The position numbers and the translations under genes are program-made. A DNA stretch of 64,000 bases from a phage, in NCBI GenBank assembly GCA_038314665.1, contig GCA_038314665.1_3677.1; one strand, written 5' to 3'. The notes beneath the pieces were generated by a model, which was not told the origin of the DNA, did no database searches, and saw only the letters and a program-made list of their open reading frames with translations. This document shows, piece by piece, positions 87 through 57,818 of the stretch (within the stretch, counting starts at the first letter, position 1; each line of letters starts with the position of its first letter).

Positions 87-482
87 ATGAATAAGAACGT
101 ACGCCGCATCATGAACGAACTGGCAAACGATGAAAAAATTATTGATATGCATTTGGTCAACATTTGCCGCCGTTGTGTAACATATAACAACCGCGCCGCA
201 AAAGCGCGTGAGATGAACGCAAAAGGCACCTTAAAGCCCTTTCAGGTGGTTGTAAAATCTATAGCTAATGCAGCAGGCCAGGCGCATGACCACAACAACG
301 AGAGCACTAATATTGATCCGTCTTACGTAATGAAACGGATCCGGACTTGCAAGAATAAAGAGCAGGTGTATAACGTCATAGATTGGCTGGACTCCATGGG
401 CGATGTGGTTTATAATAGGTTTTCTGCAGCTATCGAGATCCAGCTTGACAGACTGGACGGGAAAGTACTGAAAACTTACTGA
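87..482 (+). CDS. hypothetical early protein (131 aa)
   Basis: ORF with upstream promoter and AAAGGAAAAAG RBS; no recognisable domain. Confidence 0.6.
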   Translation: MNKNVRRIMNELANDEKIIDMHLVNICRRCVTYNNRAAKAREMNAKGTLKPFQVVVKSIANAAGQAHDHNNESTNIDPSYVMKRIRTCKNKEQVYNVIDWLDSMGDVVYNRFSAAIEIQLDRLDGKVLKTY

Positions 483-530
483 GTTTATTTTTAGATGGCC
501 TTGACTCCAGGGCCATCAATAAAGTAAACT
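483..530 (+). repeat. recurrent 48-bp intergenic element, copy 1 (palindrome GATGGCC-N10-GGCCATC around TTGACT, then TAAACT)
   Basis: near-identical copies at 1102-1149 and 4816-4866, degenerate copy at 1437-1487; each starts right after a stop codon. Confidence 0.7.
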
Positions 531-561
531 AACCACAGTTGAGCGGAAAGGGGGCTTAAAG

Positions 562-681
562 ATGAGTACTACACGCCAGCACACAAAGGTAACTATTATC
601 GTTTGCATCATTGGTTACATCCTGGCGCAAATGTTGATGGGTAGCGCCAACGGTATCGCAAAATTTTTCTTAAACTTTTAA
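562..681 (+). CDS. small hydrophobic peptide (39 aa)
   Basis: ATG at 562 after AAGGGGG RBS; hydrophobic core IIVCIIGYILAQMLMG; below the ORF-track size cutoff. Confidence 0.35.
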   Translation: MSTTRQHTKVTIIVCIIGYILAQMLMGSANGIAKFFLNF

Positions 682-709
682 TTGACAAGCTAACTTAGAT
701 CAGTATACT
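682..709 (+). promoter_or_regulatory. sigma70-like promoter (TTGACA-N16-TATACT)
   Basis: TTGACA 682-687, TATACT 704-709, hairpin GGGAAAACTTCCC and RBS before ATG 760. Confidence 0.6.
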
Positions 710-759
710 AAACACATAAACGGGAAAACTTCCCAGAACACACAAAAGGAGAAAACACC

Positions 760-1101
760 ATGACTACTATGACCGCCGCAGAAAAAGCTATGCAGATCGC
801 CGCGCTGAAAAAACAGATCGCAGACCTTGAGAACAAGATCGATAACTTTGAAATCGACGAGGACAAGTACGACGAAAACTATGATGAATGGTTAGACGAG
901 ATCTACGGCGAAATTATGATCGGAAACATTTCTTTTCTTCCGTCGCGTATCCTCAAGGAGCTAGATCCTATCGCTTACCGCTGCGGATTTAGCGACTACA
1001 TCGACAGCCTGGATATTGAGGACGATGAAGAATACCAGGAATTGCAGACAGAGCTTGAAGAAGTGAAAGAAGAGCTTTCAGAGCTGGAAGAAAACGAGTA
1101 A
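760..1101 (+). CDS. hypothetical highly acidic early protein (113 aa)
   Basis: ORF with RBS AAAGGAGAAAAC; Asp/Glu-rich, coiled-coil-like N-terminus. Confidence 0.6.
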   Translation: MTTMTAAEKAMQIAALKKQIADLENKIDNFEIDEDKYDENYDEWLDEIYGEIMIGNISFLPSRILKELDPIAYRCGFSDYIDSLDIEDDEEYQELQTELEEVKEELSELEENE

Positions 1102-1149
1102 ATTTATTTTTAGATGGCCTTGACTCCAGGGCCATCAATAAAGTAAACT
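1102..1149 (+). repeat. recurrent 48-bp intergenic element, copy 2
   Basis: AATTTATTTTTAGATGGCCTTGACTCCAGGGCCATCAATAAAGTAAACT. Confidence 0.7.
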
Positions 1150-1190
1150 TTATACCGTTAACACTGAACTAATACAGAGGAGTTAAAACC

Positions 1191-1436
1191 ATGGCAGCAC
1201 TAATCACCAAATATTACGCCCCTACCAACACCAAAAGCGCCCGTATCATGGTAAAAGGCTTCGGACGTAAAAAGGTTTACACCTGGGATTATTCCCTAGA
1301 CATGGAAGACAACTACACCAACGCGATGACCGATTTTATTAATGAACTAAATAAGCAGATCTTGACAAATTATAAAGTGACAGATATTGCTTATATAGGT
1401 GAAGGCGGGATCTGTTTTGTAGGCATTGTGAAATAG
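1191..1436 (+). CDS. hypothetical protein (81 aa)
   Basis: ORF with GAGGAG RBS. Confidence 0.55.
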   Translation: MAALITKYYAPTNTKSARIMVKGFGRKKVYTWDYSLDMEDNYTNAMTDFINELNKQILTNYKVTDIAYIGEGGICFVGIVK

Positions 1437-1487
1437 TTATTTTTTCGGTGGCCCTGGCTGCAGGACCATCTATAAAGATAATTTACT
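1437..1487 (+). repeat. degenerate copy of the recurrent intergenic element
   Basis: TTATTTTTTCGGTGGCCCTGGCTGCAGGACCATCTATAAAGATAATTTACT; same position after a stop codon, palindrome altered. Confidence 0.45.
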
Positions 1488-1511
1488 AACACCATGAAAG
1501 GAGAAAGTAAC

Positions 1512-1865
1512 ATGATCAGCGGGGCTAGTTTTATTATTGGCGCTATTGCTACGGCTTTAATTGTAAACAAGATCCAGGATAAAAAGGAAAGAGGAAGTAC
1601 CGCCCTTGCAGAATATCCATTTTGGACATTCAACGATAACGAAGATTATATTATAAAGTATAAAAATAAAGAAGGTGACCAAGTAACACCGCGACCGATC
1701 CCGGCTTACAAGATGCAGGAAACACTATACCGCCTGGAAGCGGGTGGCGCAAAAATTGTAGACTTTTGGGGATACGATCACACAGATCAGGAAGCTATAA
1801 AGCGACGTATCAGGGCTATTCAGGCCAATATTGAAGTTAGCAAGGGGGGAATATATGAAGATTAA
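1512..1865 (+). CDS. hypothetical protein with N-terminal transmembrane segment (117 aa)
   Basis: start moved to the ATG at 1512, which has an AAAGGAGA RBS 7 nt upstream (ORF track starts at 1494); N-terminus ISGASFIIGAIATALIV. Confidence 0.5.
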   Translation: MISGASFIIGAIATALIVNKIQDKKERGSTALAEYPFWTFNDNEDYIIKYKNKEGDQVTPRPIPAYKMQETLYRLEAGGAKIVDFWGYDHTDQEAIKRRIRAIQANIEVSKGGIYED

Positions 1866-2052
1866 TTTTGAGAAAATTGTAAAGCGATCTCATGATTCCG
1901 AAGAGCTGCCGGAACGCCGCCAGCGTAACAATAAACTGAATAAGCCAAAAAGATTTGGGAAGATCTGGCGGAATCATTATGATCGTAAATTGCCGGGCCT
2001 CCTTTTGGAACGTGAACGGCAGGCGGAACGATACCGCCACAAAGGCAACTAA
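1855..2052 (+). CDS. hypothetical basic protein (65 aa)
   Basis: ATG at 1855 after GGGGGGAA; ORF track gives a TTG start at 1831; followed by a terminator. Confidence 0.4.
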   Translation: MKINFEKIVKRSHDSEELPERRQRNNKLNKPKRFGKIWRNHYDRKLPGLLLERERQAERYRHKGN

Positions 2053-2062
2053 CAACCACAAC

Positions 2063-2091
2063 GCCCCGCCATCGTGCGGGGCTTTTTATTT
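2063..2091 (+). terminator. rho-independent terminator
   Basis: GCCCCGCC-ATCGT-GCGGGGC hairpin followed by TTTTTATTT. Confidence 0.7.
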
Positions 2092-2212
2092 CTACCGTAC
2101 GAATAGCGCCCCTGGTTGGCCCCACAACGCCCTAAAAGCCCCCTACCCATGCAATCCCATTTCTTAACCTGAAAACATCGTCAAAGGCTGTTTTAAAGCG
2201 TTAAAAATATTG

Positions 2213-2240
2213 TTGACATCTAAAATATTCTAGATATACT
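2213..2240 (+). promoter_or_regulatory. sigma70-like promoter (TTGACA-N16-TATACT)
   Basis: hexamers at 2213-2218 and 2235-2240, upstream of the CDS at 2276. Confidence 0.6.
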
Positions 2241-2275
2241 AATCACATCAAAGCGAGAAGTAAGGAGTAAACGAC

Positions 2276-2536
2276 ATGCGTAAATTGAAAAATTTTGATA
2301 AAGTCGATGTTGTCCTAAATAGTTTTTACTACTGCAATAATAAAGCCGTTTGGTGGCGTGATAGTTCCACCGATAAGGTTAAGGCGCGCTTTCTCCAGGG
2401 GCACTGGCAAGGCCGCCCAGTGATTAAAATCATGGGGCAATTGGTAGCGTTTAAAAATTGCCGCCGTGTTGATGACGTTGAGGAGATTTTAAACATTTTG
2501 CGCCACAATAATTTAAAAAATAGTGTTGACAAGTAA
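2276..2536 (+). CDS. hypothetical protein (86 aa)
   Basis: ORF with AAGGAG RBS. Confidence 0.55.
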   Translation: MRKLKNFDKVDVVLNSFYYCNNKAVWWRDSSTDKVKARFLQGHWQGRPVIKIMGQLVAFKNCRRVDDVEEILNILRHNNLKNSVDK

Positions 2537-2553
2537 ATCTCAATAAGTATAAT
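2526..2553 (+). promoter_or_regulatory. sigma70-like promoter (TTGACA-N16-TATAAT)
   Basis: consensus hexamers; followed by hairpin GGCGGGAAAACTTCCCGCC (2564-2582) and RBS. Confidence 0.65.
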
Positions 2554-2610
2554 TAAACACACAGGCGGGAAAACTTCCCGCCACTAACAAAGAAAACAGG
2601 AGAAAATATC

Positions 2611-3234
2611 ATGACCACCGTTAACATTACCACAGGTTACAATTTATCTTTCGACGTGCTGACCGACGAACAAAAAGAAAAAGCCATTGAAATGGTCCGC
2701 GAAAGAGAAGAACACAGCGGGGATGACTTTTTTGCAGAAAGTGTAATTGAACACTACAAAGAACAAGTTTTTCCAGAGTACGGCCTTGAAGATACCGAAG
2801 TACGTTGGTCCGGCTTTTGGTGCCAGGGTGACGGCGCGTCAATCAGTGCTGAAAACGTGGATTTAGAAAAATTCTTGCGTAAAGTCAAGGCCCTGACCAA
2901 GTTCCGATCAATTCGTCACTTGTTCGGTACAATGCGCGATGGCGAACTATCAGCCAGTGTTGAACGTATCCCGTTTAGCCATTATCACCACGAAAACACA
3001 ATAGGAGGGTGCATCGATACTAATTGGCTAGACCTGACCACCAAGCAAGAGGACAAAGTTGAAGAGCTGGAAGAGCTGATCACCGAGACGGTACGGGAGC
3101 TATCCCGCAAGGTTTACGTAGACCTGGAGGAGGCCTATCTAGAACAGTTCACTACCGAAAACCTGATCGGCCTTATTGAGGCCAATGATTGGCGGTTTGA
3201 TGTGGATGAATATGGGGAGATGAGTTTTTCATAA
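2611..3234 (+). CDS. hypothetical acidic protein (207 aa)
   Basis: ORF with RBS ACAGGAGAAAA; acidic; no confident family assignment. Confidence 0.6.
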   Translation: MTTVNITTGYNLSFDVLTDEQKEKAIEMVREREEHSGDDFFAESVIEHYKEQVFPEYGLEDTEVRWSGFWCQGDGASISAENVDLEKFLRKVKALTKFRSIRHLFGTMRDGELSASVERIPFSHYHHENTIGGCIDTNWLDLTTKQEDKVEELEELITETVRELSRKVYVDLEEAYLEQFTTENLIGLIEANDWRFDVDEYGEMSFS

Positions 3235-3241
3235 ATAAAGT

Positions 3242-3269
3242 GTTGCAATAATCTAAAAACCTGCTATAT
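3242..3269 (+). promoter_or_regulatory. sigma70-like promoter (TTGCAA-N16-TATATT)
   Basis: followed by hairpin GGGGCAAACGTCTTGCCCC and RBS. Confidence 0.5.
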
Positions 3270-3323
3270 TAAAAACTCAAGGGGCAAACGTCTTGCCCCA
3301 CACAAAACAAAGAGGATAACATC

Positions 3324-3704
3324 ATGAAAAACACTACCAAGGCTATTGACACCGTTATGTTTAACCTGGTTACATTCCGTGAAGATATGAAAGATCTTCC
3401 GCGTGAAACAGTGTGCGACCATATCGAAAACTATCGCAAACTGATCAAAGAGTTGCCTTTAAAACGTGATCAATATGCGGCTAACGCCATGCTTAATGCC
3501 ATGATCAAAAAGATGATCCAGTGTGATTTAACTCTGGCCTATGACTATGCGGGTGGTCGTTTTGCAGTATACAATCAGCCCGTGCCCGGTATGGGCACCA
3601 CCGAAGAATTGCACGCGCTCAATCTAAAACAAGACGTGTGGGATAGTATGCCCCGCGTGGTGGTGTGGGCAGAAAGCGGAAAGATTTACGGCGATAATTT
3701 TTAA
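3324..3704 (+). CDS. hypothetical protein (126 aa)
   Basis: ORF with AAGAGGA RBS. Confidence 0.6.
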   Translation: MKNTTKAIDTVMFNLVTFREDMKDLPRETVCDHIENYRKLIKELPLKRDQYAANAMLNAMIKKMIQCDLTLAYDYAGGRFAVYNQPVPGMGTTEELHALNLKQDVWDSMPRVVVWAESGKIYGDNF

Positions 3705-3768
3705 TCAGGTAACAGGCGGCATATTTGCCGCCTTATTGTTAAACAGAACTGCAAAAGAGGTACATAGA

Positions 3769-4140
3769 ATGGAATTTATTATTTTGGCTGTATTGGTTGC
3801 CTTGTTTAACGCCTGGATCGCTGGCAAGATGGGCAGGTCCGCCTTTTTATGGTTTATTATATCTATTTTCCTGGGGGTGGTTGCAACTATTGTATTGGTT
3901 ATCCTTGCAATTGTTGACAAGGGGAATAATAGAAAGGGTAAAGTATTTTCAGACCTGTACGACGCTCAAACGTTTGTCAACGCCTATTATAGTGATCTTC
4001 CAGTCTCCCTACGCTGCAGCCTGGCACAACAGGTTTTTGATGAGGCTAAAACCAGAGATCAAGCCCATGAGATATGTTTAACTGAGGCGGATCGCCTATT
4101 TGAGAGGAATAGAAAATATGTGGGCCAACCGTTTAAATAA
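3769..4140 (+). CDS. small membrane protein, two predicted TM helices (123 aa)
   Basis: start taken at the ATG with AGAGG RBS (MEFIILAVLVALF...); ORF track begins at 3736. Confidence 0.5.
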   Translation: MEFIILAVLVALFNAWIAGKMGRSAFLWFIISIFLGVVATIVLVILAIVDKGNNRKGKVFSDLYDAQTFVNAYYSDLPVSLRCSLAQQVFDEAKTRDQAHEICLTEADRLFERNRKYVGQPFK

Positions 4141-4363
4141 TGCCACGTTAATTAATCCCTTTAGTGAAGATTTGAAGCCAGCCGCCTGGCGTGACGGATT
4201 CAATAACGAACGCTTTATTTTCAGGCCTGATCTTGAGGAATTTTATAACAATGGATCGAACAACAGCGGAGATAATTTTTCTTGTGGTGTGTGTCGTGAT
4301 AGGACTCCTGGGGGCCATTGTAAACCACGTCACTACTACCAGAAGGAAAGGGGGAGACGATGA
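4118..4363 (+). CDS. hypothetical Asn-rich protein (81 aa), frame uncertain
   Basis: ATG after GAGAGGAATAG; an alternative overlapping frame (4251-4376) encodes a TM peptide; cannot be resolved by eye. Confidence 0.3.
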   Translation: MWANRLNNATLINPFSEDLKPAAWRDGFNNERFIFRPDLEEFYNNGSNNSGDNFSCGVCRDRTPGGHCKPRHYYQKERGRR

Positions 4364-4479
4364 CAACCAAGGATAAGCCCAGCACCGATAAGGTGCGCCG
4401 GGTTATGGTATGGCTGGAGATCATCGCCCTTGAAATATTGTTAGGCGTAGGGATGTACTTTATCGCTGTAAGTAACTAA
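4360..4479 (+). CDS. small membrane peptide (39 aa)
   Basis: ATG after AGGAAAGGGGGAG; hydrophobic WLEIIALEILLGVGMYFIAV; followed by a terminator. Confidence 0.4.
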   Translation: MTTKDKPSTDKVRRVMVWLEIIALEILLGVGMYFIAVSN

Positions 4480-4484
4480 GAACG

Positions 4485-4512
4485 GCCCCCGATCATGGGG
4501 GCTTATCTTTTT
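4485..4512 (+). terminator. rho-independent terminator
   Basis: GCCCCCGATCATGGGGGC hairpin followed by TTATCTTTTT. Confidence 0.7.
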
Positions 4513-4614
4513 AAAAATTTTTCTTCCGTGGTGTTGCAATCCGGTCCGGAATGTGGATAATAACAATCAACGGGGAGCTAATCCCCACCACAAAAACCAG
4601 AAAGGAGAAACAAA

Positions 4615-4815
4615 ATGAGCAACAATATCCGCGTTATTAACTTCAAAAAAGAAGAAAAAATTGCCGTGCTGATTGACGGTCAAGAAATCTTCAAGGGCGA
4701 CTATGAAGATCATCAAACGGCGATTAGTATCACTCGCGTGATTGGTTACCATAATTTTTACCCCCAAGGCGCTGAGGCAGCGGTTAAACGAATCAAAGAG
4801 ATTGTAGGCCTGTAA
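4615..4815 (+). CDS. hypothetical protein (66 aa)
   Basis: ORF with AAAGGAGAAAC RBS. Confidence 0.55.
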   Translation: MSNNIRVINFKKEEKIAVLIDGQEIFKGDYEDHQTAISITRVIGYHNFYPQGAEAAVKRIKEIVGL

Positions 4816-4866
4816 AATTTATTTTTAGATGGCCTTGACTCCAGGGCCATCAATAAAGTAAATTTA
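4816..4866 (+). repeat. recurrent 48-bp intergenic element, copy 4
   Basis: AATTTATTTTTAGATGGCCTTGACTCCAGGGCCATCAATAAAGTAAAT. Confidence 0.7.
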
Positions 4867-4899
4867 AACCCTGTTAAAATACCACGCAGTTAACAAGGA

Positions 4900-5208
4900 G
4901 TGATAGACATGTTTATCCAGGCTAATAATCTTTATTTCTTTGATGGTCAGATCGTAGATGGTGTGGAAGTGGAGATCACCGGGTGCCCTGGCGGTCAGGC
5001 TATGACTTTTCGGAATAATGCCTTTAATGATTCTCATATCGTTATGAGAATGGAAGTTACGAAGCTGGATGACAAGAAAACACTTATTGACTATTCTGTG
5101 AAAGATCATCCAGACTACCACATGATCTATGGTGATTTGTGCATTGTTGACCGTGACAAGGTGAGCGGCATTGTGATCGCTATTGTGAACGATGTTTTCT
5201 CAAACTAA
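4900..5208 (+). CDS. hypothetical protein (102 aa)
   Basis: ORF with AAGGAG RBS. Confidence 0.55.
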   Translation: MIDMFIQANNLYFFDGQIVDGVEVEITGCPGGQAMTFRNNAFNDSHIVMRMEVTKLDDKKTLIDYSVKDHPDYHMIYGDLCIVDRDKVSGIVIAIVNDVFSN

Positions 5209-5225
5209 TTTCAACAGGTGATTTT

Positions 5226-5576
5226 ATGAAAGTTAAATTATATTACCTTAATGAGCTTAACCCCCTTGCCCAGGTCCACGCCCTAGCTAATACCTTGATT
5301 TGTGAGAAATCTGTATATTGTGTTGAGCTTAACGCCATGCGTGAACGTCTCAAAGGTGGTTACTTTAACATCCATGCTGCAATCAACGGCCTGAATATGG
5401 AATTTATCCGTTTACGTAACAGCCGCCGGAATCTGGCAAGAATGGAACAAGATCCGGCCCACCTTCGTAAGCTGGTTATTGAAAATCATCTGATGTTTAA
5501 TGCCGAGGGTGATTATTACCATTTTCACCGCAAACGCTGGTACCGTGGCGGCAATACAGGCAAGAATGCAAAATAA
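5226..5576 (+). CDS. hypothetical basic protein (116 aa)
   Basis: ORF 18 nt after the previous stop. Confidence 0.5.
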   Translation: MKVKLYYLNELNPLAQVHALANTLICEKSVYCVELNAMRERLKGGYFNIHAAINGLNMEFIRLRNSRRNLARMEQDPAHLRKLVIENHLMFNAEGDYYHFHRKRWYRGGNTGKNAK

Positions 5577-5613
5577 GGCCCCAGGCAGGGCCTACAGCGA
5601 CCTAAACACTAGC

Positions 5614-5645
5614 AGGCTATGCGATTGCATAGCCTTTATTGTTTT
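5614..5645 (+). terminator. rho-independent terminator
   Basis: AGGCTATGC-GATT-GCATAGCCT hairpin followed by TTATTGTTTT. Confidence 0.6.
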
Positions 5646-5777
5646 GACGTTACAACGGCCCTAAGGCGCTTAAAAAATTTTTAAAGAAGTACTTGCATCA
5701 TTCCCGACAATATGGATAATAAGAGTTGTCGAGGGGGAGGCCCCCAATCATTGACCAGATAGATAGGAGTTAAAATC

Positions 5778-6062
5778 ATGGCTATTGTTACCGCTGGCGA
5801 TGTAGTAGAAATGGAAGCAAAATACTTAAAAGCGGGTATGCATATCCTACGGAATGATCAAGAGTTATTATTAACGATGGTTGACTATAATCCCGGCCAG
5901 GATTATCCAAGCATCGACTACTTTTTTGAGTATGTTAATGAAGAGTTGAAAGAGGATGAGGCCTACTGCGGTGAGTTCTGCAACTTCTTTTGTCCTGATG
6001 AGGTTGTAAAGGTTATTTATCAACCTGGCGTAGCTTTCCCGCTGCACGCTATCAATAAATAA
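5778..6062 (+). CDS. hypothetical protein (94 aa)
   Basis: ORF with TAGGAG RBS; promoter-like TTGCAT...TATGGATAAT upstream. Confidence 0.55.
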   Translation: MAIVTAGDVVEMEAKYLKAGMHILRNDQELLLTMVDYNPGQDYPSIDYFFEYVNEELKEDEAYCGEFCNFFCPDEVVKVIYQPGVAFPLHAINK

Positions 6063-6126
6063 ACCTGGCGGGGCCGAAAAGGCCCCTACAGCATAAAATT
6101 ATGAAAGTAAAGAGAGGTAAATCATC

Positions 6127-6360
6127 ATGATGGAACAAATTAAACGCACCGAGGCTATTAATGGCAATGTGATCTATTTTGTTAGCAATAACGAGAAAGG
6201 CGTACCATATGCGGCGGTAATAGTACAGCCTGACGGTGATTATTGGTTTACTGTATACGGATCTTATTCTTTCGGGCGTCCGGTGCATGATAGAATTTTG
6301 AAAGTAGCGAACCCTACCGGGAAGAATATCACAGCAGAAAAATTTTTTGAAAATAGTTGA
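6127..6360 (+). CDS. hypothetical protein (77 aa)
   Basis: ORF with AGAGAGG RBS. Confidence 0.5.
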   Translation: MMEQIKRTEAINGNVIYFVSNNEKGVPYAAVIVQPDGDYWFTVYGSYSFGRPVHDRILKVANPTGKNITAEKFFENS

Positions 6361-6384
6361 CATGACCATATAAAACTGTAATAT
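6357..6384 (+). promoter_or_regulatory. sigma70-like promoter (TTGACA-N16-TAATAT)
   Basis: followed by hairpin GGGGCCCAAGCCCC and RBS before the ATG at 6436. Confidence 0.55.
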
Positions 6385-6435
6385 ATAAATCAAAGAGGGG
6401 CCCAAGCCCCACCAACCACAAAGAGGATAAAAATC

Positions 6436-6615
6436 ATGGCTATTATTGCAAAGACCGAGATCGTAGGCTTAGATTCTATTCTCCTCGCATATGAGGAAGC
6501 TATAGAAATGTATGTGGTTTCCTATGGTGAGTATATCCGTGAATATGAATCTATTGATCTAGCTTTTGAATGTTATATTCGCCAGGTTAATAAAGCGTAC
6601 GATGATTATCGTTAA
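6436..6615 (+). CDS. hypothetical protein (59 aa)
   Basis: ATG at 6436 with the same leader architecture (CACAAAGAGGATAAAAATC-ATG); below the ORF-track cutoff. Confidence 0.5.
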   Translation: MAIIAKTEIVGLDSILLAYEEAIEMYVVSYGEYIREYESIDLAFECYIRQVNKAYDDYR

Positions 6616-6707
6616 AATAGTTTGACAACAAACAACCATCTAACAAAGCATAATACATAAGGTGGTAGAATGATCCGCCACCCCGGAACAAAGAAGAGGT
6701 AAACACC

Positions 6708-6953
6708 ATGAAAAGCAATAAAGGTTATAACGGTTACAAAAACAAAACTCATTGGAATGTAAGCCTTTGGATTAATAACGATGAGTCATTGTACCGGTTG
6801 GCCCAAGGCTTTATTAACGCTAATGCTAATCGTAATGATGCGGCGCGGGATATGATGCTTTTTCTGGAGCTAACCGGACAAGATAAGACCCCGGACGGCT
6901 TCAAGTACAGCACTACGGCGATCCGTGCCGCGATGGTTGGAATGAAACACTAA
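6708..6953 (+). CDS. hypothetical protein (81 aa)
   Basis: ORF with promoter TTGACA...CATAAT, hairpin GGTGG...CCACC and RBS. Confidence 0.55.
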   Translation: MKSNKGYNGYKNKTHWNVSLWINNDESLYRLAQGFINANANRNDAARDMMLFLELTGQDKTPDGFKYSTTAIRAAMVGMKH

Positions 6954-7144
6954 AAGCACATAGCCGCCTTACCCTGGGGCTGTGGTAGCGGCCCCATGAA
7001 TAAGGTTACTAACAGAAGAGAATAAACACCATAAAACAGAAATTAATCGATGCAGTGATCTTGATTATTGCCCTGGGTATTGGCCTGATTGCAACCATGT
7101 CTAATATGATCTTGTCTTCCAACGGTATCGGGTGAGGTTGGCAA

Positions 7145-53908: not shown

Positions 53909-53983
53909 GCCCTGTTAGCTTAGTGGATAAAGCAGCGGCCTTCTAAGCCGTTGACACTGGTTCGAGTCCAGTACGGGGTGCCA
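53909..53983 (+). tRNA. tRNA-Arg (anticodon TCT)
   Basis: manual cloverleaf: acceptor GCCCTGT/ACGGGGT, anticodon loop CTTCTAA, T-loop TTCGAGT, encoded CCA. Confidence 0.75.
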
Positions 53984-54113
53984 AGTTCTTTTTAATGTAG
54001 CTTACTTTAGCAGAGTAAATCTTCGGCAAGTGGCGGTAACCACTTTACCGATACCTCATAGTTAGTGGTGAGAACACTAGCTATTTTAAAAAGAATTTAA
54101 ATATTAGTATTTA

Positions 54114-54201
54114 GGTGAGTTAATTCCGTAGGGGTAGCGGGGCAGACTGTAAATCTGTTATCATTGCGATTCGGGTGGTTCGACTCCATCACTCACCACC
54201 A
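54114..54201 (+). tRNA. tRNA-Tyr (anticodon GTA)
   Basis: acceptor GGTGAGT/ACTCACC, anticodon loop CTGTAAA, long variable arm, CCA. Confidence 0.8.
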
Positions 54202-54315
54202 AATTTATATTTTTAAATGCATAAATCATACAGATAATGGCATTGATATTTATCGTCGTTTATACTAGTCACTAACTGCTCGAAAATCAGTGTCATTATC
54301 AGTATAATTTATAAA

Positions 54316-54406
54316 GGAGGGTAGGGAGCAATGGTGCTCAAGCGGTCTTGAAAACCGTCCCATTGAGGATGACTCGATGATGGTTCGATTCCATTACTCT
54401 CCGCCA
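54316..54406 (+). tRNA. tRNA-Ser (anticodon TGA)
   Basis: acceptor GGAGGGT/ACTCTCC, anticodon loop CTTGAAA, long variable arm, CCA. Confidence 0.75.
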
Positions 54407-54504
54407 CATTGTTGACCTTGTAATTAAGCGAAAGCCGGAAGCAGAACCGGATTATCAAATGTTACAGTCGTCATCGCCGACTAGCAACATGGTCAACATA
54501 CTGA

Positions 54505-54603
54505 GCTAGGTAAGCCCTTTGGCAAGGGCGAGGATTTTTAATCCTGAAAATAGACGAGGTAGTCGTTGAATACATAGGTGGTTCGATTCCACCGCCTAGC
54601 ACC
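54505..54603 (+). tRNA. atypical tRNA-like gene (99 nt), anticodon possibly TTT
   Basis: acceptor GCTAGGT/GCCTAGC and T-arm GGTGG-TTCGATT-CCACC are clear; loop TTTTTAA on a short stem; about 30 nt between anticodon arm and T-arm. Confidence 0.4.
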
Positions 54604-54608
54604 TTTTT

Positions 54609-54684
54609 GCTGATGTAGCACAATTGGCAGTGCAATTGATTTGTAATCAATAGGTTGCAGGTTCAAGTCCTGCCATCAGCACCA
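54609..54684 (+). tRNA. tRNA-Thr (anticodon TGT)
   Basis: acceptor GCTGATG/CATCAGC, anticodon loop TTTGTAA, T-loop TTCAAGT, CCA. Confidence 0.8.
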
Positions 54685-54685
54685 A

Positions 54686-54760
54686 GGCCCTGTAGCTGGA
54701 AGGTTCAAGCAAGCGACTCATAATCGCCAGACGGTGGTTCAATTCCACCCAGGGCCACCA
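54686..54760 (+). tRNA. tRNA-Met (anticodon CAT; elongator Met or Ile2 type)
   Basis: acceptor GGCCCTG/CAGGGCC, anticodon loop CTCATAA, CCA. Confidence 0.7.
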
Positions 54761-54771
54761 AATGGTAAATA

Positions 54772-54848
54772 CTCCGCGTAGCTCAGCTTGGTAGAGCGCC
54801 TGATTTGGGATCAGGAGGTCGAGTGTTCGAATCACTCCGTGGAGACCA
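54772..54848 (+). tRNA. tRNA-Pro (anticodon TGG)
   Basis: acceptor CTCCGCG/CGTGGAG with C1-G72, anticodon loop TTTGGGA, T-loop TTCGAAT, CCA. Confidence 0.8.
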
Positions 54849-55269: not shown

Positions 55270-55668
55270 ATGATTTCAGGTTTAACATGGCTTAGTAGGT
55301 ATAGAGGGATCATAAAAGGTTTAGTTTTTGCAGCGGCTATAGGTACAGCTTATCTTGGGGCCGTGTATTGGTTTAACTCTAAGCTTAATGATGCCTACCA
55401 AGAGGGTGTGTCAGCAACAGAGTTAAAGTGGGAACGGATCCTTGATCAGCAACAAAAGCAGGCCGACAAAATTAAAATGGGCCACGCAGAGGAGGTTAAA
55501 AACCTTGAAAAATCTCTTTCTGATCTGCAGGATAAATTAAATATAGCTGAGAGGGCAGGTAGAGAAAAGCAGATTATCTACCTCCAATCATCTGAAGGTA
55601 AGAAGTCAACACTTCCTGATCAGCTTATAGATATTTATAATGAGAGTATCAATCAGGAGGATCGATGA
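55270..55668 (+). CDS. i-spanin (Rz-like), 132 aa
   Basis: N-terminal TM helix followed by a coiled-coil periplasmic domain; immediately upstream of a lipoprotein ORF. Confidence 0.65.
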   Translation: MISGLTWLSRYRGIIKGLVFAAAIGTAYLGAVYWFNSKLNDAYQEGVSATELKWERILDQQQKQADKIKMGHAEEVKNLEKSLSDLQDKLNIAERAGREKQIIYLQSSEGKKSTLPDQLIDIYNESINQEDR

Positions 55669-55952
55669 GAGTTGCTACACTGTTTATTGTGTGCTTGTTA
55701 TTATGTGGGTGTGCAACCAGCGTTGAGAGAGAATACAGGATTGACACTCCAGATGTAGGAAGGTTGATTGTTAAACCCCCAGAAGGTGCCATGAAACCAC
55801 CTGCTAGAGCTATGCCTTTGAAGAAAGGTGCGCCAGATGCGGTGAATTCTGGCATTATGAGGGATAATAATCTGTCTTGTAGCAATGATAGAGCTAAATT
55901 GATCATTTTGCAAGACTATATTAGAACACTGTTTCCAAAGGAGAGAGGTTAA
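55665..55952 (+). CDS. o-spanin (Rz1-like outer-membrane lipoprotein), 95 aa
   Basis: lipoprotein signal FIVCLLLCGC, Pro-rich mature part; ATGA overlap with the i-spanin. Confidence 0.65.
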   Translation: MRVATLFIVCLLLCGCATSVEREYRIDTPDVGRLIVKPPEGAMKPPARAMPLKKGAPDAVNSGIMRDNNLSCSNDRAKLIILQDYIRTLFPKERG

Positions 55953-56377
55953 TGTCTAAGATTTACGGACCGTGTTCTGAAAAGCAGAAGATGATCCTAG
56001 AAAACGATGCAGATATTTTGGTAATCGGAGGTGCCGCAGGGTCTGGCAAGTCGTTCCTCTTGCAGTTGATGCCACTTAAAATTATTGATGACCCCCACAG
56101 CTCTGTGGTTATGTTCCGAAGAACAACCCCACAGTTGGAAGGTGAGGGTGGACTATGGCCTAAAGCAGTAGCTATTTATAGTGATCTGCCTGAAAACATT
56201 AAGCCAAAGTTCAGAGAGAAGGATCATAAGTTCATTTTTCCACGGTTTGATCCGAACACTGGTAAGTGGGATAGAAGCAAAAAGGGGGCTGTTGTAAAAT
56301 ACTGCCACATGGAGTATGTACAAGATAAGCTTAACCACCAGGGGCTTGAGTACACCATGGTTTGCTTCGATGAGGGT
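55952..56377 (+). CDS. terL: terminase large subunit, exon 1 (ATPase N-terminal part)
   Basis: Walker A GGAAGSGKS and Walker B MVCFDE; ORF ends at the UAA that begins the intron. Confidence 0.8.
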
Positions 56378-56696
56378 TAATTTGTAGCTCTCGTAAAACC
56401 TCCCTAATTGCGGGGAAATCTTTATTATTGACACCACCAACCTGTTATGGTAACATAATAGAGGCTTCGAAGAGAGATCGAAGGTATGGTAACAGTGTGT
56501 TAATTTAGATAATCCGCAGCGAAGCATCCGATAGGATGAACGTTCAACGACTAGTCGAAAGACGTAGAATCAAGCGATTCGAAACGGGAGGGTAAGCGGT
56601 TGTTGTCGCTTATAAGATATAGTCTGGTCTGCATGGAGACATGCAGCTGCCTGAAAATGGCGGGGCAAGACTAGCGACCTTGCCCGAACATAAACG
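56378..56696 (+). other. group I self-splicing intron (IA-like, no ORF) in the terminase large-subunit gene
   Basis: P-like AATTGCGGGGAAA 56406-56418, Q-like AATCCGCAGC 56511-56520, R-like GTTCAACGACTAGTCGAAAG 56542-56561, S-like AAGATATAGTCTGG 56614-56627; guide GCTCTC 56387-56392; ends in G. Confidence 0.8.
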
Positions 56697-57818
56697 ACAC
56701 AATTCGAATGGGAGCAGATAGACTATCTGATGTCTCGTCTGCGATCTCAGTCAAAGTATCCATCAAGGATGGTTATCAGCTGTAACCCCGATTCAGAACA
56801 CATGCTTGCCAAACTGGTTAGATGGTGGTTGGACGATGAAGGGTATCCAGATCCGGAGAAGTGCGGTAAGAAAAGATATTTTATCCGACGCGACGGTGAA
56901 TTTATTTGGGGAGACTCTAAGGAAGAGTTGATAGAGAAATACACCACGGTTAACGGACTGGGTGTAGAGATCAAGCCAAGACCGTTGTCATTCTCGTTCA
57001 TAGGCGCAACAATATTCGATAATCCTGTCTGTTTGAGAGACAACCCAGAATACCTTGCTTTCCTCGAAGGTCTACCAGAGCTGGAAAAAGCTCAGCTTCT
57101 CCATGGTAACTGGTTTGCAAAGCCTGAGGGTGCAAACTATTTTCAAAGATCTTTCCTTCGTGATGCCGATAGAGTACCCCTTGGATCAGTATCTTGCAGG
57201 GCATGGGATAAGGCAGGAACCGAGAGAACTTCTGGCAATAAATTTCCTGACTTTACTGCCAGTATTAAGGTAAGTAAAGATAGCGACGGCTTTTATTACC
57301 TGTCAGGGGATTATTGTCCTGAAAACGTGGATGACGGGAGGTATTCCACAGGTCTGGAAGGCAAGTTCTGTAAAAAGGCTGGTGAACGAGATGTGATCAT
57401 CAGGAAACAGGCGCAGTTTGATGGTGATGATTGCATAATCGTATTCTCTGTGGACCCTGGTCAGGCAGGTAAGAGTGAGTTCTTAACCTCATCCAGATCC
57501 TTGCTCGCAGAAGGGTTCAGGGTTGAAGAAGACCCAATGCCTTCCAACAAGTCTAAACTGACAAGGTTCTCACCTTTTGCCAATCTTGCCCAACAAGGGA
57601 TGGTGAGGATTGTAAAATCCAGTTTCCATCCTGATACTCTGGAAGCATTTCTGACCGAACTTGAAAAATTCAACGGGGAAAGATCAACATTTAACAGAAA
57701 AGACGACTGGGCTGACTGTGTAGCTTCTGCAATTAATTTCCTGGAGAAAGAGGAGGTAGCACTTCCTTGTGTGATTCCATCAATCTCATCACCTTCTATG
57801 TTCAAGCGTTTTATCTAA
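56697..57818 (+). CDS. terL: terminase large subunit, exon 2 (ATPase coupling motif plus nuclease domain)
   Basis: ISCNP coupling-type motif and nuclease-domain-sized C-terminus; exon 2 start inferred from frame, preceding G and continuity after Walker B. Confidence 0.75.
   Translation, partial: TQFEWEQIDYLMSRLRSQSKYPSRMVISCNPDSEHMLAKLVRWWLDDEGYPDPEKCGKKRYFIRRDGEFIWGDSKEELIEKYTTVNGLGVEIKPRPLSFSFIGATIFDNPVCLRDNPEYLAFLEGLPELEKAQLLHGNWFAKPEGANYFQRSFLRDADRVPLGSVSCRAWDKAGTERTSGNKFPDFTASIKVSKDSDGFYYLSGDYCPENVDDGRYSTGLEGKFCKKAGERDVIIRKQAQFDGDDCIIVFSVDPGQAGKSEFLTSSRSLLAEGFRVEEDPMPSNKSKLTRFSPFANLAQQGMVRIVKSSFHPDTLEAFLTELEKFNGERSTFNRKDDWADCVASAINFLEKEEVALPCVIPSISSPSMFKRFI

What the first reader, a model, noticed from the sequence alone, without database searches (positions are those of the whole stretch)
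56378..56696. ORF-less group I intron splits the terminase large-subunit gene
The terL reading frame stops at a UAA directly after Walker B (MVCFDEG) and resumes about 320 nt later in another frame. The gap has no ORF and contains all four conserved group I core elements in the right order and with the right complementarity: P AATTGCGGGGAAA, Q AATCCGCAGC (P/Q pair TGCGG/CCGCA), R GTTCAACGACTAGTCGAAAG and S AAGATATAGTCTGG (R/S pair GACTA/TAGTC). The 5' exon ends in U followed by UAA, as at the T4 td intron junction; an internal guide GCUCUC can pair with the exon end GAGGGU; a GNRA-capped hairpin follows S; the last intron base is G. Introns in a packaging gene are uncommon, and splicing would be required to make a functional terminase.
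Basis: partly seen in the sequence, partly recalled or inferred. Interest (0 to 1): 0.85.

Follow-up and report, generated by a model that had tools for sequence, protein, structure and literature searches.

The report
Known self-splicing intron in phage terminase gene

Summary
Confirmed and already known. Window 56378-56696 is a 319-nt ORF-less group I intron. It splits terL directly after the Walker B codons (…FDEG|TQFEW…). Rfam RF00028 scores 84.3 bits (cut-off 50, E 5e-20). All stated core elements, the U·G splice-site pair, the GNRA-capped P9 and the terminal G are present.

The predicted 515-aa spliced product is identical to the deposited TerL of phage rV5 (ABI79304.1) and LL12 (AXC42742.1). 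It also matches contiguous terL genes of intron-less relatives. The T4 td 3' splice site aligns with window position 56696.

The ribozyme is td-like (IA-type, with P7.1/P7.2 and P9.1/P9.2). Its 3' two-thirds are supported by covariation in 101 related introns (96.5% paired against 61% shuffled).

The intron is polymorphic. In a sample of 50 Vequintavirus terL genes, 27 have no intron and 22 carry this intron. Nine of those are ORF-less and 13 carry an Endonuclease_7 homing-endonuclease cassette that replaces P8.

Only exon positions -1 (U/C) and +3 (A/G) segregate with intron presence.

Kropinski et al. 2013 described the rV5 terL introns. A different terL intron 6 nt upstream in phage CB7 was shown to splice. 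Splicing of this particular intron has not been shown directly.

The parts
55952..56377 (+). terL exon 1 (142 codons; Walker A GGAAGSGKS, Walker B MVCFDE-G). The last base, U56377, is the 5' splice-site U.
   Evidence: ORF list. Pfam Terminase_6N matches the spliced product. The alignment with homologs is gapless.
56378..56696 (+). Group I intron, 319 nt, ORF-less, td-like (IA-type). It begins with an in-frame UAA and ends with omega-G.
   Evidence: Rfam RF00028 84.3 bits. Own model R1 201.8 bits. Boundaries fixed by intron-less alleles and by the td alignment.
56697..57818 (+). terL exon 2 (373 codons plus stop), starting ACA CAA TTC GAA TGG (TQFEW).
   Evidence: Spliced product identical to ABI79304.1 and AXC42742.1.
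56370..56394 (+). P1: exon AUGAGGGU (56370-56377) paired with the internal guide GCUCUCGU (56387-56394); U56377·G56387 wobble at the 5' splice site.
   Evidence: Read from the sequence. Rfam alignment. Constrained fold.
56399..56404 (+). P3 5' strand CCUCCC, which pairs with GGGAGG at 56586-56591.
   Evidence: Rfam alignment. T4 td has UCUAUC/GAUAGA at the same places, so both sides changed.
56408..56519 (+). P4 (UUGCGG 56408-56413 with CCGCAG 56514-56519) enclosing P5 and a peripheral P5 extension of about 80 nt (56418-56510). The extension includes an 8-bp hairpin capped by GUAA and a CUUCGA/UCGAAG hairpin.
   Evidence: Rfam alignment shows a 73-nt insertion in the P5 loop. MFE fold. The SL2 relative lacks the extension. 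The extension fold is a prediction only.
56520..56542 (+). P6/P6a hairpin (CG..CAUCC GAUA GGAUG..CG).
   Evidence: Compensatory differences in SL2 and phiAGATE.
56549..56624 (+). P7 (GACUA 56549-56553 with UAGUC 56620-56624). It encloses P7.1 (56554-56563, GAAA loop), P7.2 (56567-56580), the P3 3' strand (56586-56591) and P8 (56593-56612).
   Evidence: All pairs are canonical. Covariation in 101 sequences: P7.1 99.6%, P7.2 98.3% and P8 97.3% paired, with every pair of these three helices changed on both sides.
56629..56684 (+). P9 (56629-56646, GAGA loop), P9.1 (56647-56663) and P9.2 (56664-56684).
   Evidence: 82% identity to the T4 td 3' domain, with compensatory changes. Covariation: P9 99.7%, P9.1 81.5% and P9.2 about 98% paired.
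56696..56696 (+). Omega-G, the last intron nucleotide (3' splice site ...GAACAUAAACG|ACACAA).
   Evidence: Aligns with the experimentally known td omega-G (...GAACAUAAUG|CUACCG). SL2 and phiAGATE introns end in G at the same column.

Best explanation
Window 56378-56696 is a 319-nt ORF-less group I intron of the T4 td-like (IA-type) kind, inside the essential large terminase gene of an rV5-like coliphage (Vequintavirus).

How it most likely works:
1. The gene is transcribed through the intron.
2. The intron RNA folds. P1 forms between the exon end AUGAGGGU and the guide GCUCUCGU. The core is P3-P8, P4-P6 and P7, with peripheral P7.1/P7.2, P9.1/P9.2 and a P5 extension.
3. A guanosine cofactor attacks after U56377.
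4. The freed exon 1 then attacks after G56696.
5. This joins GGU to ACA and gives a 515-aa TerL with an intact ...MVCFDEG-TQFEWEQ... segment just after Walker B.

Ribosomes reading unspliced RNA stop at the UAA that forms the first three intron bases. They would make only a 142-aa N-terminal fragment.

This copy has no homing endonuclease. Sibling phages carry the same intron with an Endonuclease_7-type ORF cassette in place of P8. That enzyme, or ordinary recombination in mixed infections, can spread the intron into intron-less alleles with a very short co-conversion tract.

Shown here: the sequence and structure match, the boundaries, the polymorphism and the identity of the product. Inferred: the splicing chemistry, autonomy of splicing, and mobility in trans.
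For: - Rfam RF00028: 84.3 bits against a cut-off of 50, E 5e-20, full-length match. It is the only group I hit in the window.
- Negative control: the intron-less locus L007 has no hit.
- P1 with a U·G pair, the P/Q/R/S elements, GNRA-capped P9 and the terminal G are all present.
- The td intron's known 3' splice site aligns with 56696, and P9.1/P9.2 show compensatory changes.
- Covariation on 101 distinct td-like introns: 96.5% of cells paired against 61.2% in shuffles and at most 45.4% when slid; 32 of 37 pairs changed on both sides; score 0.738 against 0.158.
- The spliced protein hits Terminase_6N and Terminase_6C. It aligns without a gap with contiguous homologs across the junction, with D140, E141 and F145 invariant.
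- Intron-less natural alleles exist: L007 and isolates such as AlexBoehm, FV3 and I29. They encode the same protein at the junction.
- The exact 515-aa product equals rV5 TerL ABI79304.1 and LL12 TerL AXC42742.1.
- GenBank annotates joined CDS features for this gene.
- Kropinski 2013 describes 'Introns in terminase' for rV5. The LL12 announcement says terL is disrupted by a predicted intron.
- All 8 intron-bearing alleles examined have U at -1, as the U·G pair needs. All 6 intron-less alleles have C.
- These phages are plaque-forming isolates and terL is essential, so the intron must be removed.
Against: - I found no RNA-level evidence (RT-PCR, RNA-seq or in vitro splicing) for this intron in any Vequintavirus.
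- P10 is weak: only ACA/UGU, and offset by one nucleotide.
- P2 is absent.
- The related phiAGATE terL intron spliced in vivo but not in vitro (PMC11878797), so autonomous self-splicing cannot be assumed.
- The covariation alignment was fitted to the model, which favours the structure.
Confidence: 0.95

Rival explanations
1. It is a group I intron that splices only with help in the cell (RNA chaperones, ribosome passage or a phage or host protein) and is not autocatalytic in vitro.
For: The related phiAGATE terL intron (68% identical to the window intron over nt 134-316) spliced in vivo but not in vitro (PMC11878797). This intron lacks P2 and has only a weak P10. The in-frame UAA at the first intron codon, as in td, suggests coupling to translation.
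Against: The core is complete and canonical. Peripheral stabilising elements are present (P7.1/7.2, P9.1/9.2, and GNRA loops on P5b, P7.1 and P9). Its closest well-studied relative, td, is known from the literature to self-splice (my own knowledge, not tested here).
Confidence: 0.15
2. The intron is a decayed remnant that no longer splices, and TerL is made as two separate polypeptides (142 aa, plus about 362 aa from ATG 56730) that assemble in trans.
For: Automatic annotation often calls the two ORFs separately. For example, the 142-aa fragment is on record on 417 and 281 contigs and as separate CDS features in several phage records.
Against: No Shine-Dalgarno-like sequence precedes ATG 56730, and starting there would drop the conserved TQFEWEQIDYL segment. 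All core elements are intact. Sequence differences among Vequintavirus copies in the 3' domain fall in loops, not stems. Intron-less alleles encode a single chain. No homolog is naturally split at this point without an intron.
Confidence: 0.02
3. The 319-nt gap is crossed by the ribosome (programmed bypass or frameshift, as with the T4 gene 60 gap) rather than removed from the RNA.
For: A stop codon directly follows the take-off codon GGU, which superficially resembles gene 60.
Against: The gap is 319 nt and matches a ribozyme model at E 5e-20 with covariation support. There is no matching landing codon: GGU at 56375 has no GGU directly before 56697.
Confidence: 0.005

Closest known systems
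terL intron 1 of Escherichia phage rV5 (NC_011041/DQ832317, 'ORF64ABC'; Kropinski et al. 2013, PMC3606486), and the same intron in LL12 and the BASEL Vequintavirus isolates
   Same: It is the same element at the same site: 98.7% identity over all 319 nt and an identical spliced protein. Rfam hits at the corresponding coordinates in rV5 and RudolfGeigy.
   Different: rV5 also has a second terL intron carrying an HNH endonuclease. The window does not; its site at 57013|57014 is empty. Other relatives carry an Endonuclease_7 ORF in P8 of this intron.
T4 td (thymidylate synthase) group I intron, subgroup IA2
   Same: The 3' domain is 82% identical over 79 nt. P7.1, P7.2, P8, P9, P9.1 and P9.2 align with compensatory changes. 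The splice-site context is the same: GGGU|UAAUU at the 5' end and GAACAUAAxG| at the 3' end.
   Different: td is 1016 nt, with the I-TevI ORF in P6, and it has a P2. The window intron is 319 nt, ORF-less and lacks P2, has a P5 extension of about 80 nt, and sits in a different gene.
ORF-less intron in the RNA polymerase beta-subunit gene of phiKZ-like Pseudomonas phages (e.g. SL2, NC_042081)
   Same: It is the closest ribozyme outside Vequintavirus: 72% identity over intron nt 130-316 and 86% over nt 16-44. Rfam scores 84.2 bits. It is ORF-less and begins with UAA.
   Different: It sits in a different host gene, lacks the P5 extension and has extra 5' sequence where P2 would lie. In the relative PhiPA3, an intron in an RNA polymerase beta-subunit gene encodes an HNH endonuclease used in phage-phage competition (PMC11620839).
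terL intron of Pectobacterium phage CB7 / phiTE (Certrevirus, same subfamily Vequintavirinae)
   Same: It is a group I intron in the orthologous terL at the Walker B motif, and splicing was shown by RT-PCR and Sanger sequencing (PMC7344957). Model R1 also matches it, at 77.6 bits.
   Different: It is inserted between the D and E codons (GAU|UGA...AUG|GAA), 6 nt upstream of the window's site. It carries an HNH_3 endonuclease. By blastn it is only about 80% similar to the window intron, around the S element.
terL introns of Lactobacillus phage LL-H (Mikkonen and Alatossava 1995, cited in PMC3606486) and of Bastillevirinae phages phiAGATE and SIOphi (PMC11878797)
   Same: They are group I introns in large terminase genes. 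The phiAGATE intron is 68.5% identical to window intron nt 134-316 and Rfam scores it at 60.2 bits.
   Different: They are in unrelated terminase families and at different insertion points. phiAGATE exon 1 ends ...FPTNR, which is not Walker B. LL-H was not examined here.

Membership tests
Group I catalytic intron (Rfam RF00028) | Covariance-model score at or above the curated gathering score | tested here: met
   84.3 bits against 50, E 5.3e-20, model positions 1-253 of 253.
Group I catalytic intron (Rfam RF00028) | P1 helix between the 5' exon end and an internal guide sequence, with a U·G wobble at the splice site | tested here: met
   AUGAGGGU (56370-56377) pairs with GCUCUCGU (56387-56394), with U56377·G56387. 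All 8 intron-bearing alleles have U at -1 and all 6 intron-less alleles have C.
Group I catalytic intron (Rfam RF00028) | Conserved core: P3, P4/P6 and P7/P8 pairings (the P, Q, R and S elements) | tested here: met
   All helices are canonical. P7, P7.1, P7.2, P8 and P9-P9.2 are supported by covariation. P3 is CCUCCC/GGGAGG here and UCUAUC/GAUAGA in td. P4-P6 rests on the Rfam alignment and on four-sequence comparisons only.
Group I catalytic intron (Rfam RF00028) | Terminal G (omega-G) and exon ligation that restores the host reading frame | tested here: met
   G56696 aligns with the td omega-G. The ligated frame gives TerL identical to deposited proteins and to intron-less alleles.
Group I catalytic intron (Rfam RF00028) | P10 pairing of the 3' exon with the guide sequence | tested here: inconclusive
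   Only 3 bp are possible (exon ACA 56697-56699 with UGU 56383-56385), offset by one nucleotide from P1.
Group I catalytic intron (Rfam RF00028) | Guanosine-initiated self-splicing | not testable with these tools
   No RNA data were found for this intron. An intron in the orthologous terL gene of CB7, 6 nt upstream, and the phiAGATE terL introns do splice in vivo.
td-like phage introns (subgroup IA2 in the classical scheme) | P7.1 and P7.2 hairpins between P7 and the 3' strand of P3 | tested here: met
   GUC-GAAA-GAC (56554-56563) and GAAUC-AAGC-GAUUC (56567-56580). They are 99.6% and 98.3% paired, with every pair changed on both sides.
td-like phage introns (subgroup IA2 in the classical scheme) | P9.1/P9.2 extension and sequence homology to the td 3' domain | tested here: met
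   82% identity over 79 nt. Compensatory changes. Covariation.
td-like phage introns (subgroup IA2 in the classical scheme) | P2 hairpin between P1 and P3 | tested here: not met
   Only GUAAAA separates P1 from P3, and the Rfam alignment deletes the P2 positions. I therefore call it td-like/IA-type rather than making a formal subgroup assignment. The 2025 Bastillevirinae paper also finds IA2 heterogeneous.
Mobile (homing) group I intron | Presence/absence polymorphism at one precise site among close relatives | tested here: met
   In a spread sample of 50 full-length Vequintavirus terL genes, 27 have no intron and 22 carry this intron. The site is identical in all 14 alleles inspected. Both states occur within the species Vequintavirus murica: LL12 has the intron and EduardKellenberger does not.
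Mobile (homing) group I intron | Intron-encoded homing endonuclease | tested here: not met
   There is no ORF in the window copy. Sibling copies carry a 196-aa PF02945 Endonuclease_7 ORF in a P8 cassette. Any mobility of this copy would have to be in trans or by recombination.
Mobile (homing) group I intron | Co-conversion of flanking exon sequence | tested here: inconclusive
   Of 147 variable terL sites plus position -1, only -1 and +3 segregate perfectly with the intron. HMD-6 (intron present) has the exon haplotype of the intron-less EduardKellenberger and SYGMH1 except at -33, -3, -1 and +3. This is suggestive, but the sample is only 14 alleles.
Terminase large subunit, Terminase_6 type (PF03237/PF17289) | Pfam domain matches above the curated cut-offs on the spliced product, with Walker A and B | tested here: met
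   Terminase_6N 72.2 bits (cut-off 22) and Terminase_6C 27.0 bits (cut-off 22.6). GGAAGSGKS and FDE are conserved.

The most novel reading that the evidence does not exclude
The ORF-less intron may not be a mere passenger. By interrupting the target site GAGGGC|ACGCAG, it could make this phage immune to the Endonuclease_7-type homing enzyme carried by sibling Vequintaviruses. It would then act as a cheap defence in phage-against-phage interference competition of the kind shown for the PhiPA3/PhiKZ RNA polymerase intron. Its guanosine dependence could also tie terminase production to the GTP level late in infection.
Probability: 0.25. Interest if true: 0.45.

Novelty: already known. Interest (0 to 1): 0.15.

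Why it matters
For annotation: terL here must be annotated as a joined CDS (55952..56377, 56697..57818). Many automatic records still split it into two 'terminase' ORFs.

For biology, it adds nothing categorically new. The population picture in public genomes does make the Vequintavirus terL locus a convenient natural system for studying intron homing, endonuclease gain or loss, and intron-mediated competition between coliphages. That picture has four parts:
- Intron-less alleles, ORF-less introns and endonuclease-bearing introns co-circulate.
- The swap is a clean P8 cassette.
- The co-conversion tract is a few nucleotides long and includes the splice-site U.
- A second, different intron sits 6 nt away in a sister genus.

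Tried and rejected
1. I first wondered whether the contiguous 515-aa Logan protein P0001/L007 came from a spliced transcript. I rejected that. L007 carries the C/G/G variants typical of intron-less DNA alleles and is 99.9% identical to isolates with an uninterrupted 1548-nt gene.
2. I tested whether the inteins in longer TerL homologs sit at the intron site. They do not. All nine examined are in Walker A.
3. I tested whether the experimentally spliced CB7 terL intron is the same element. It is not. It lies 6 nt upstream and carries a different endonuclease.
4. The MAFFT alignment of window, SL2, phiAGATE and td misaligned the variable P7.1 and P8 hairpins. I therefore seeded the covariance model from three near-identical Vequintavirus copies with a hand-written structure.
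5. Rfam at the gathering threshold does not detect the endonuclease-bearing copies (L003, L004) or T4 td (L008), because the ORF breaks the alignment. Absence of a hit there means nothing.
6. The 124-aa minus-strand ORF 56153..56527 is mechanical. Its start lies inside the intron, so it cannot exist in intron-less alleles.
7. Protein comparison alone cannot separate boundaries 56378-56696 from 56377-56695, because both give DEG|TQF. The group I rules (exon ends in U, intron ends in G) and the td alignment decide for 56378-56696.
8. Literature searches found no splicing experiment for any Vequintavirus.

Full report
**What is there.** The window comes from an rV5-like coliphage (genus Vequintavirus). 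The terL region is 99.3% identical to phage LL12 and 97-99% identical to about a hundred other records.

The ORF 55952..56380 encodes the N-terminal 142 residues of a Terminase_6-type large terminase. It ends ...MVCFDEG followed by TAA.

The reading frame resumes at 56697 (ACA CAA TTC GAA TGG = TQFEW) in a different frame and runs to 57818. The 319 nt in between have stops in all three forward frames.

**Is it more than chance?** Yes. Rfam's group I model RF00028 matches 56368-56646 at 84.3 bits (cut-off 50), E 5.3e-20, over the whole model. It is the only such hit in the 64 kb; the other hits are five tRNAs. The intron-less relative L007 gives no hit, which serves as a negative control.

**Boundaries.** Three independent lines fix 56378..56696.

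1. Natural intron-less alleles exist: a Logan contig (L007) and isolates such as AlexBoehm, FV3, EduardKellenberger and SYGMH1. They read GAG GG**C** AC**G** CAG, where the window reads GAG GG**T** | intron | AC**A** CAA.
2. The experimentally defined 3' splice site of the T4 td intron (...GAACAUAAUG|CUACCG) aligns with ...GAACAUAAACG|ACACAA. In that call I also checked that td coordinates 565..1580 give the 1016-nt intron and an intact thymidylate synthase.
3. Only this placement leaves the exon ending in U and the intron ending in G. The alternative shifted by one base gives the same protein but breaks both rules.

The spliced product is 515 aa. It hits Terminase_6N and Terminase_6C. It aligns without a gap with contiguous homologs across the junction, with D140, E141 and F145 invariant. 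It is residue-for-residue the TerL deposited for rV5 (ABI79304.1) and LL12 (AXC42742.1).

**Structure.** Numbering the intron from 56378 = 1:

| Helix | Intron positions | Note |
|---|---|---|
| P1 | exon -8..-1 with 10-17 | U·G at the splice site |
| P2 | absent | |
| P3 | 22-27 / 209-214 | |
| P4 | 31-36 / 137-142 | |
| P5 | about 41-44 / 130-133 | plus a predicted extension of about 80 nt that includes a GUAA-capped hairpin |
| P6 | within 143-165 | |
| P7 | 172-176 / 243-247 | |
| P7.1 | 177-186 | GAAA loop |
| P7.2 | 190-203 | |
| P8 | 216-235 | |
| P9 | 252-269 | GAGA loop |
| P9.1 | 270-286 | |
| P9.2 | 287-307 | |
| omega-G | 319 | |

All proposed pairs are canonical.

To test the fold I built a covariance model of nt 166-319 from three near-identical Vequintavirus copies. 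I searched it against 94 IMG/VR loci, taken from the 120 retrieved with the pattern GTTCAACGACTA-N40-70-AGATATAGTC, together with the window and five reference loci.

This gave 105 matches, 101 of them distinct. In these, 96.5% of cells are paired, against 61.2% in shuffles and at most 45.4% when the partner is slid. 32 of 37 pairs show changes on both sides. The covariation score is 0.738 against 0.158. The caveat is that the alignment was fitted to the model.

P3 also covaries with td: CCUCCC/GGGAGG here against UCUAUC/GAUAGA there. Among Vequintavirus copies, the few substitutions in this domain fall in loops or single strands.

P10 is weak (3 bp, offset by one nucleotide). The fold of the P5 extension is only a prediction.

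**Relatives of the ribozyme.**
- The 3' domain is 82% identical to T4 td.
- It is about 72% identical to an ORF-less intron in the RNA polymerase beta gene of phiKZ-like Pseudomonas phages.
- It is about 68% identical to a terL intron of Bacillus phage phiAGATE.
- All of these begin with an in-frame UAA straight after the splice-site U.

The ribozyme is therefore td-like, IA-type, with P7.1/P7.2 and P9.1/P9.2. It lacks P2 and has an enlarged P5.

**Population picture.** I took an evenly spaced sample of 50 full-length Vequintavirus terL genes and classified them by the length of the matched span.

| State | Count |
|---|---|
| No intron | 27 |
| This intron, ORF-less | 6 |
| This intron with an endonuclease gene | 10 |
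| Second intron only | 1 |
| Both introns, both ORF-less | 2 |
| This intron ORF-less plus second intron with HNH | 1 |
| This intron with endonuclease plus second intron with HNH | 3 |

So 22 of 50 carry this intron: 9 ORF-less and 13 with the endonuclease.

In the endonuclease-bearing form, nt 217-234 (the top of P8) are replaced by 582 nt. A different 10-bp stem, GAAUGUGUAA/UUACACAUUC, brackets a 196-aa Endonuclease_7 (PF02945) ORF. Its start codon lies in the 5' strand of that stem, and its stop codon is the UAG inside the S element.

The window lacks the second intron. Its site is empty at 57013|57014.

**Exon signature.** Among 14 alleles there are 147 variable terL sites. Only -1 (U with the intron, C without) and +3 (A against G) segregate perfectly with the intron. 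The U at -1 is exactly what the splice-site U·G pair needs.

Phage HMD-6 carries the intron. It has the exon haplotype of the intron-less phages EduardKellenberger and SYGMH1 except at -33, -3, -1 and +3. That is what homing or recombination with a very short co-conversion tract would leave. The sample is small, so I treat this as suggestive.

**How it most likely works.** It works like standard group I splicing of a td-like ribozyme, which restores the conserved segment just after Walker B and so makes a functional packaging ATPase. This is inferred from the intact, covarying core and from the fact that these are viable lytic phages with an essential terL. I found no direct RNA evidence for any Vequintavirus.

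Indirect support comes from two relatives. A different intron 6 nt upstream in the orthologous terL of Pectobacterium phage CB7 was shown to splice by RT-PCR and sequencing. The terL introns of phiAGATE, one of which is related to this ribozyme, splice in vivo but not in vitro. That second result keeps open a cofactor-dependent variant of the explanation.

**What is already known.**
- rV5's GenBank record annotates terL as a three-part join, 'ORF64ABC', with an HNH gene inside.
- Kropinski et al. 2013 has a section 'Introns in terminase' and thanks D. Shub for placing the intron.
- LL12's record says 'intron-containing gene', and its announcement says terL is disrupted by a predicted intron.
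- The BASEL phage records use joined CDS features.
- Group I introns in terL are also published for LL-H, Certrevirus, Bastillevirinae and others.

**Verdict.** Interest is 0.15.

The most novel reading still open is that the ORF-less intron serves as immunity against the sibling phages' intron endonuclease, by analogy with PhiPA3/PhiKZ. It might also act as a GTP-dependent switch for terminase synthesis. Neither idea has been tested.

Noticed in passing
L035 (about 119-7104, minus strand) and L034 (7380-8921, minus strand), both from IMGVR_UViG_3300033074_000206 (111 kb): One uncultivated viral contig carries about 15 complete group I introns: Rfam RF00028 gives 10 hits in L035 and 5 in L034. 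Many lie head to tail with spacers of only about 8-100 nt (for example seven between L035 119 and 2223). Exon pieces between them match tail sheath profiles (phrog_23, phrog_20545). A structural gene cut up by that many introns with micro-exons looks unusual and deserves its own study.
   Followed up: partly
L025 (2279-6473, plus strand; IMGVR_UViG_3300029780_000150): A second viral contig has six td-like ribozyme 3' domains (model R1) and three Rfam group I hits within about 4 kb. The interrupted gene was not identified.
   Followed up: no
window 57013|57014: This is the empty insertion site of the second Vequintavirus terL intron (window ACAAT|ATTCGAT, inside FIGATIFDNP). RudolfGeigy has a 268-nt ORF-less intron here (Rfam 95.6 bits), and rV5 and HdK5 have a version carrying an HNH_3 endonuclease. 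The intron-bearing allele differs synonymously next to the site (ACC against ACA).
   Followed up: partly
L003 1143-1735 and L004 1143-1735 (DrSchubert, HdK5), replacing window 56594-56611: In sibling phages the P8 hairpin of this intron is replaced as a cassette. A new 10-bp stem flanks a 196-aa Endonuclease_7 (PF02945) ORF whose stop codon is the UAG of the catalytic S element. The ORF-less and ORF-bearing forms therefore differ by a clean swap, not by a simple insertion into the old P8 loop.
   Followed up: partly
L011 (Pectobacterium phage CB7) 385-1347, compared with window 56371/56372: The sister genus Certrevirus has a different group I intron, carrying an HNH_3 endonuclease, inserted between the D and E codons of the same Walker B motif. 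That is 6 nt upstream of the window's site, so two independent introns target one motif.
   Followed up: partly
Alignment A1 columns about 50-480 (homologs P0037, P0047, P0064, P0077, P0084, P0088, P0093, P0103, P0119); corresponds to window about 56032-56047: Nine longer TerL homologs carry inteins, some with LAGLIDADG or Hom_end domains, inserted in the Walker A P-loop (GGAAG|...|SGKS). In this terminase family, inteins target Walker A and introns target Walker B.
   Followed up: partly
window 53909-54845: A cluster of five tRNA genes on the plus strand lies about 1 kb upstream of the spanin and terL genes (Rfam RF00005, 39-77 bits).
   Followed up: no
window 55270-55952: i-spanin (55270-55668) and o-spanin (55665-55952) genes lie directly upstream of terL. 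The o-spanin stop codon overlaps the terL start (TAATG at 55950-55954). Annotation was taken from the relatives' records.
   Followed up: no
GenBank MG065635, MG065646, MG065655, MG065661 etc. ('Campylobacter phage C12, D1, C2, C9...', UNVERIFIED): Eighteen records named Campylobacter phages are 96-99.9% identical to coliphage Vequintavirus terL and are classified as Vequintavirus. The host label looks doubtful.
   Followed up: no
proteins P0122 and P0123 (142 aa; equal to window 55952-56380): The exon-1 fragment alone is on record on 417 and 281 contigs, many named 'terminase family protein [Escherichia coli]'. Automatic pipelines routinely mis-annotate this split gene, and the phage turns up in many E. 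coli assemblies.
   Followed up: no
window 56378-56380; L008 565-567; L010 2402-2404; L009 2437-2439; L005 about 1561-1563: Every td-like intron inspected begins with an in-frame UAA immediately after the splice-site U: the window intron, T4 td, SL2, phiAGATE and Vequintavirus intron 2. CB7 begins with UGA. This looks like a family trait that stops ribosomes at P1.
   Followed up: partly
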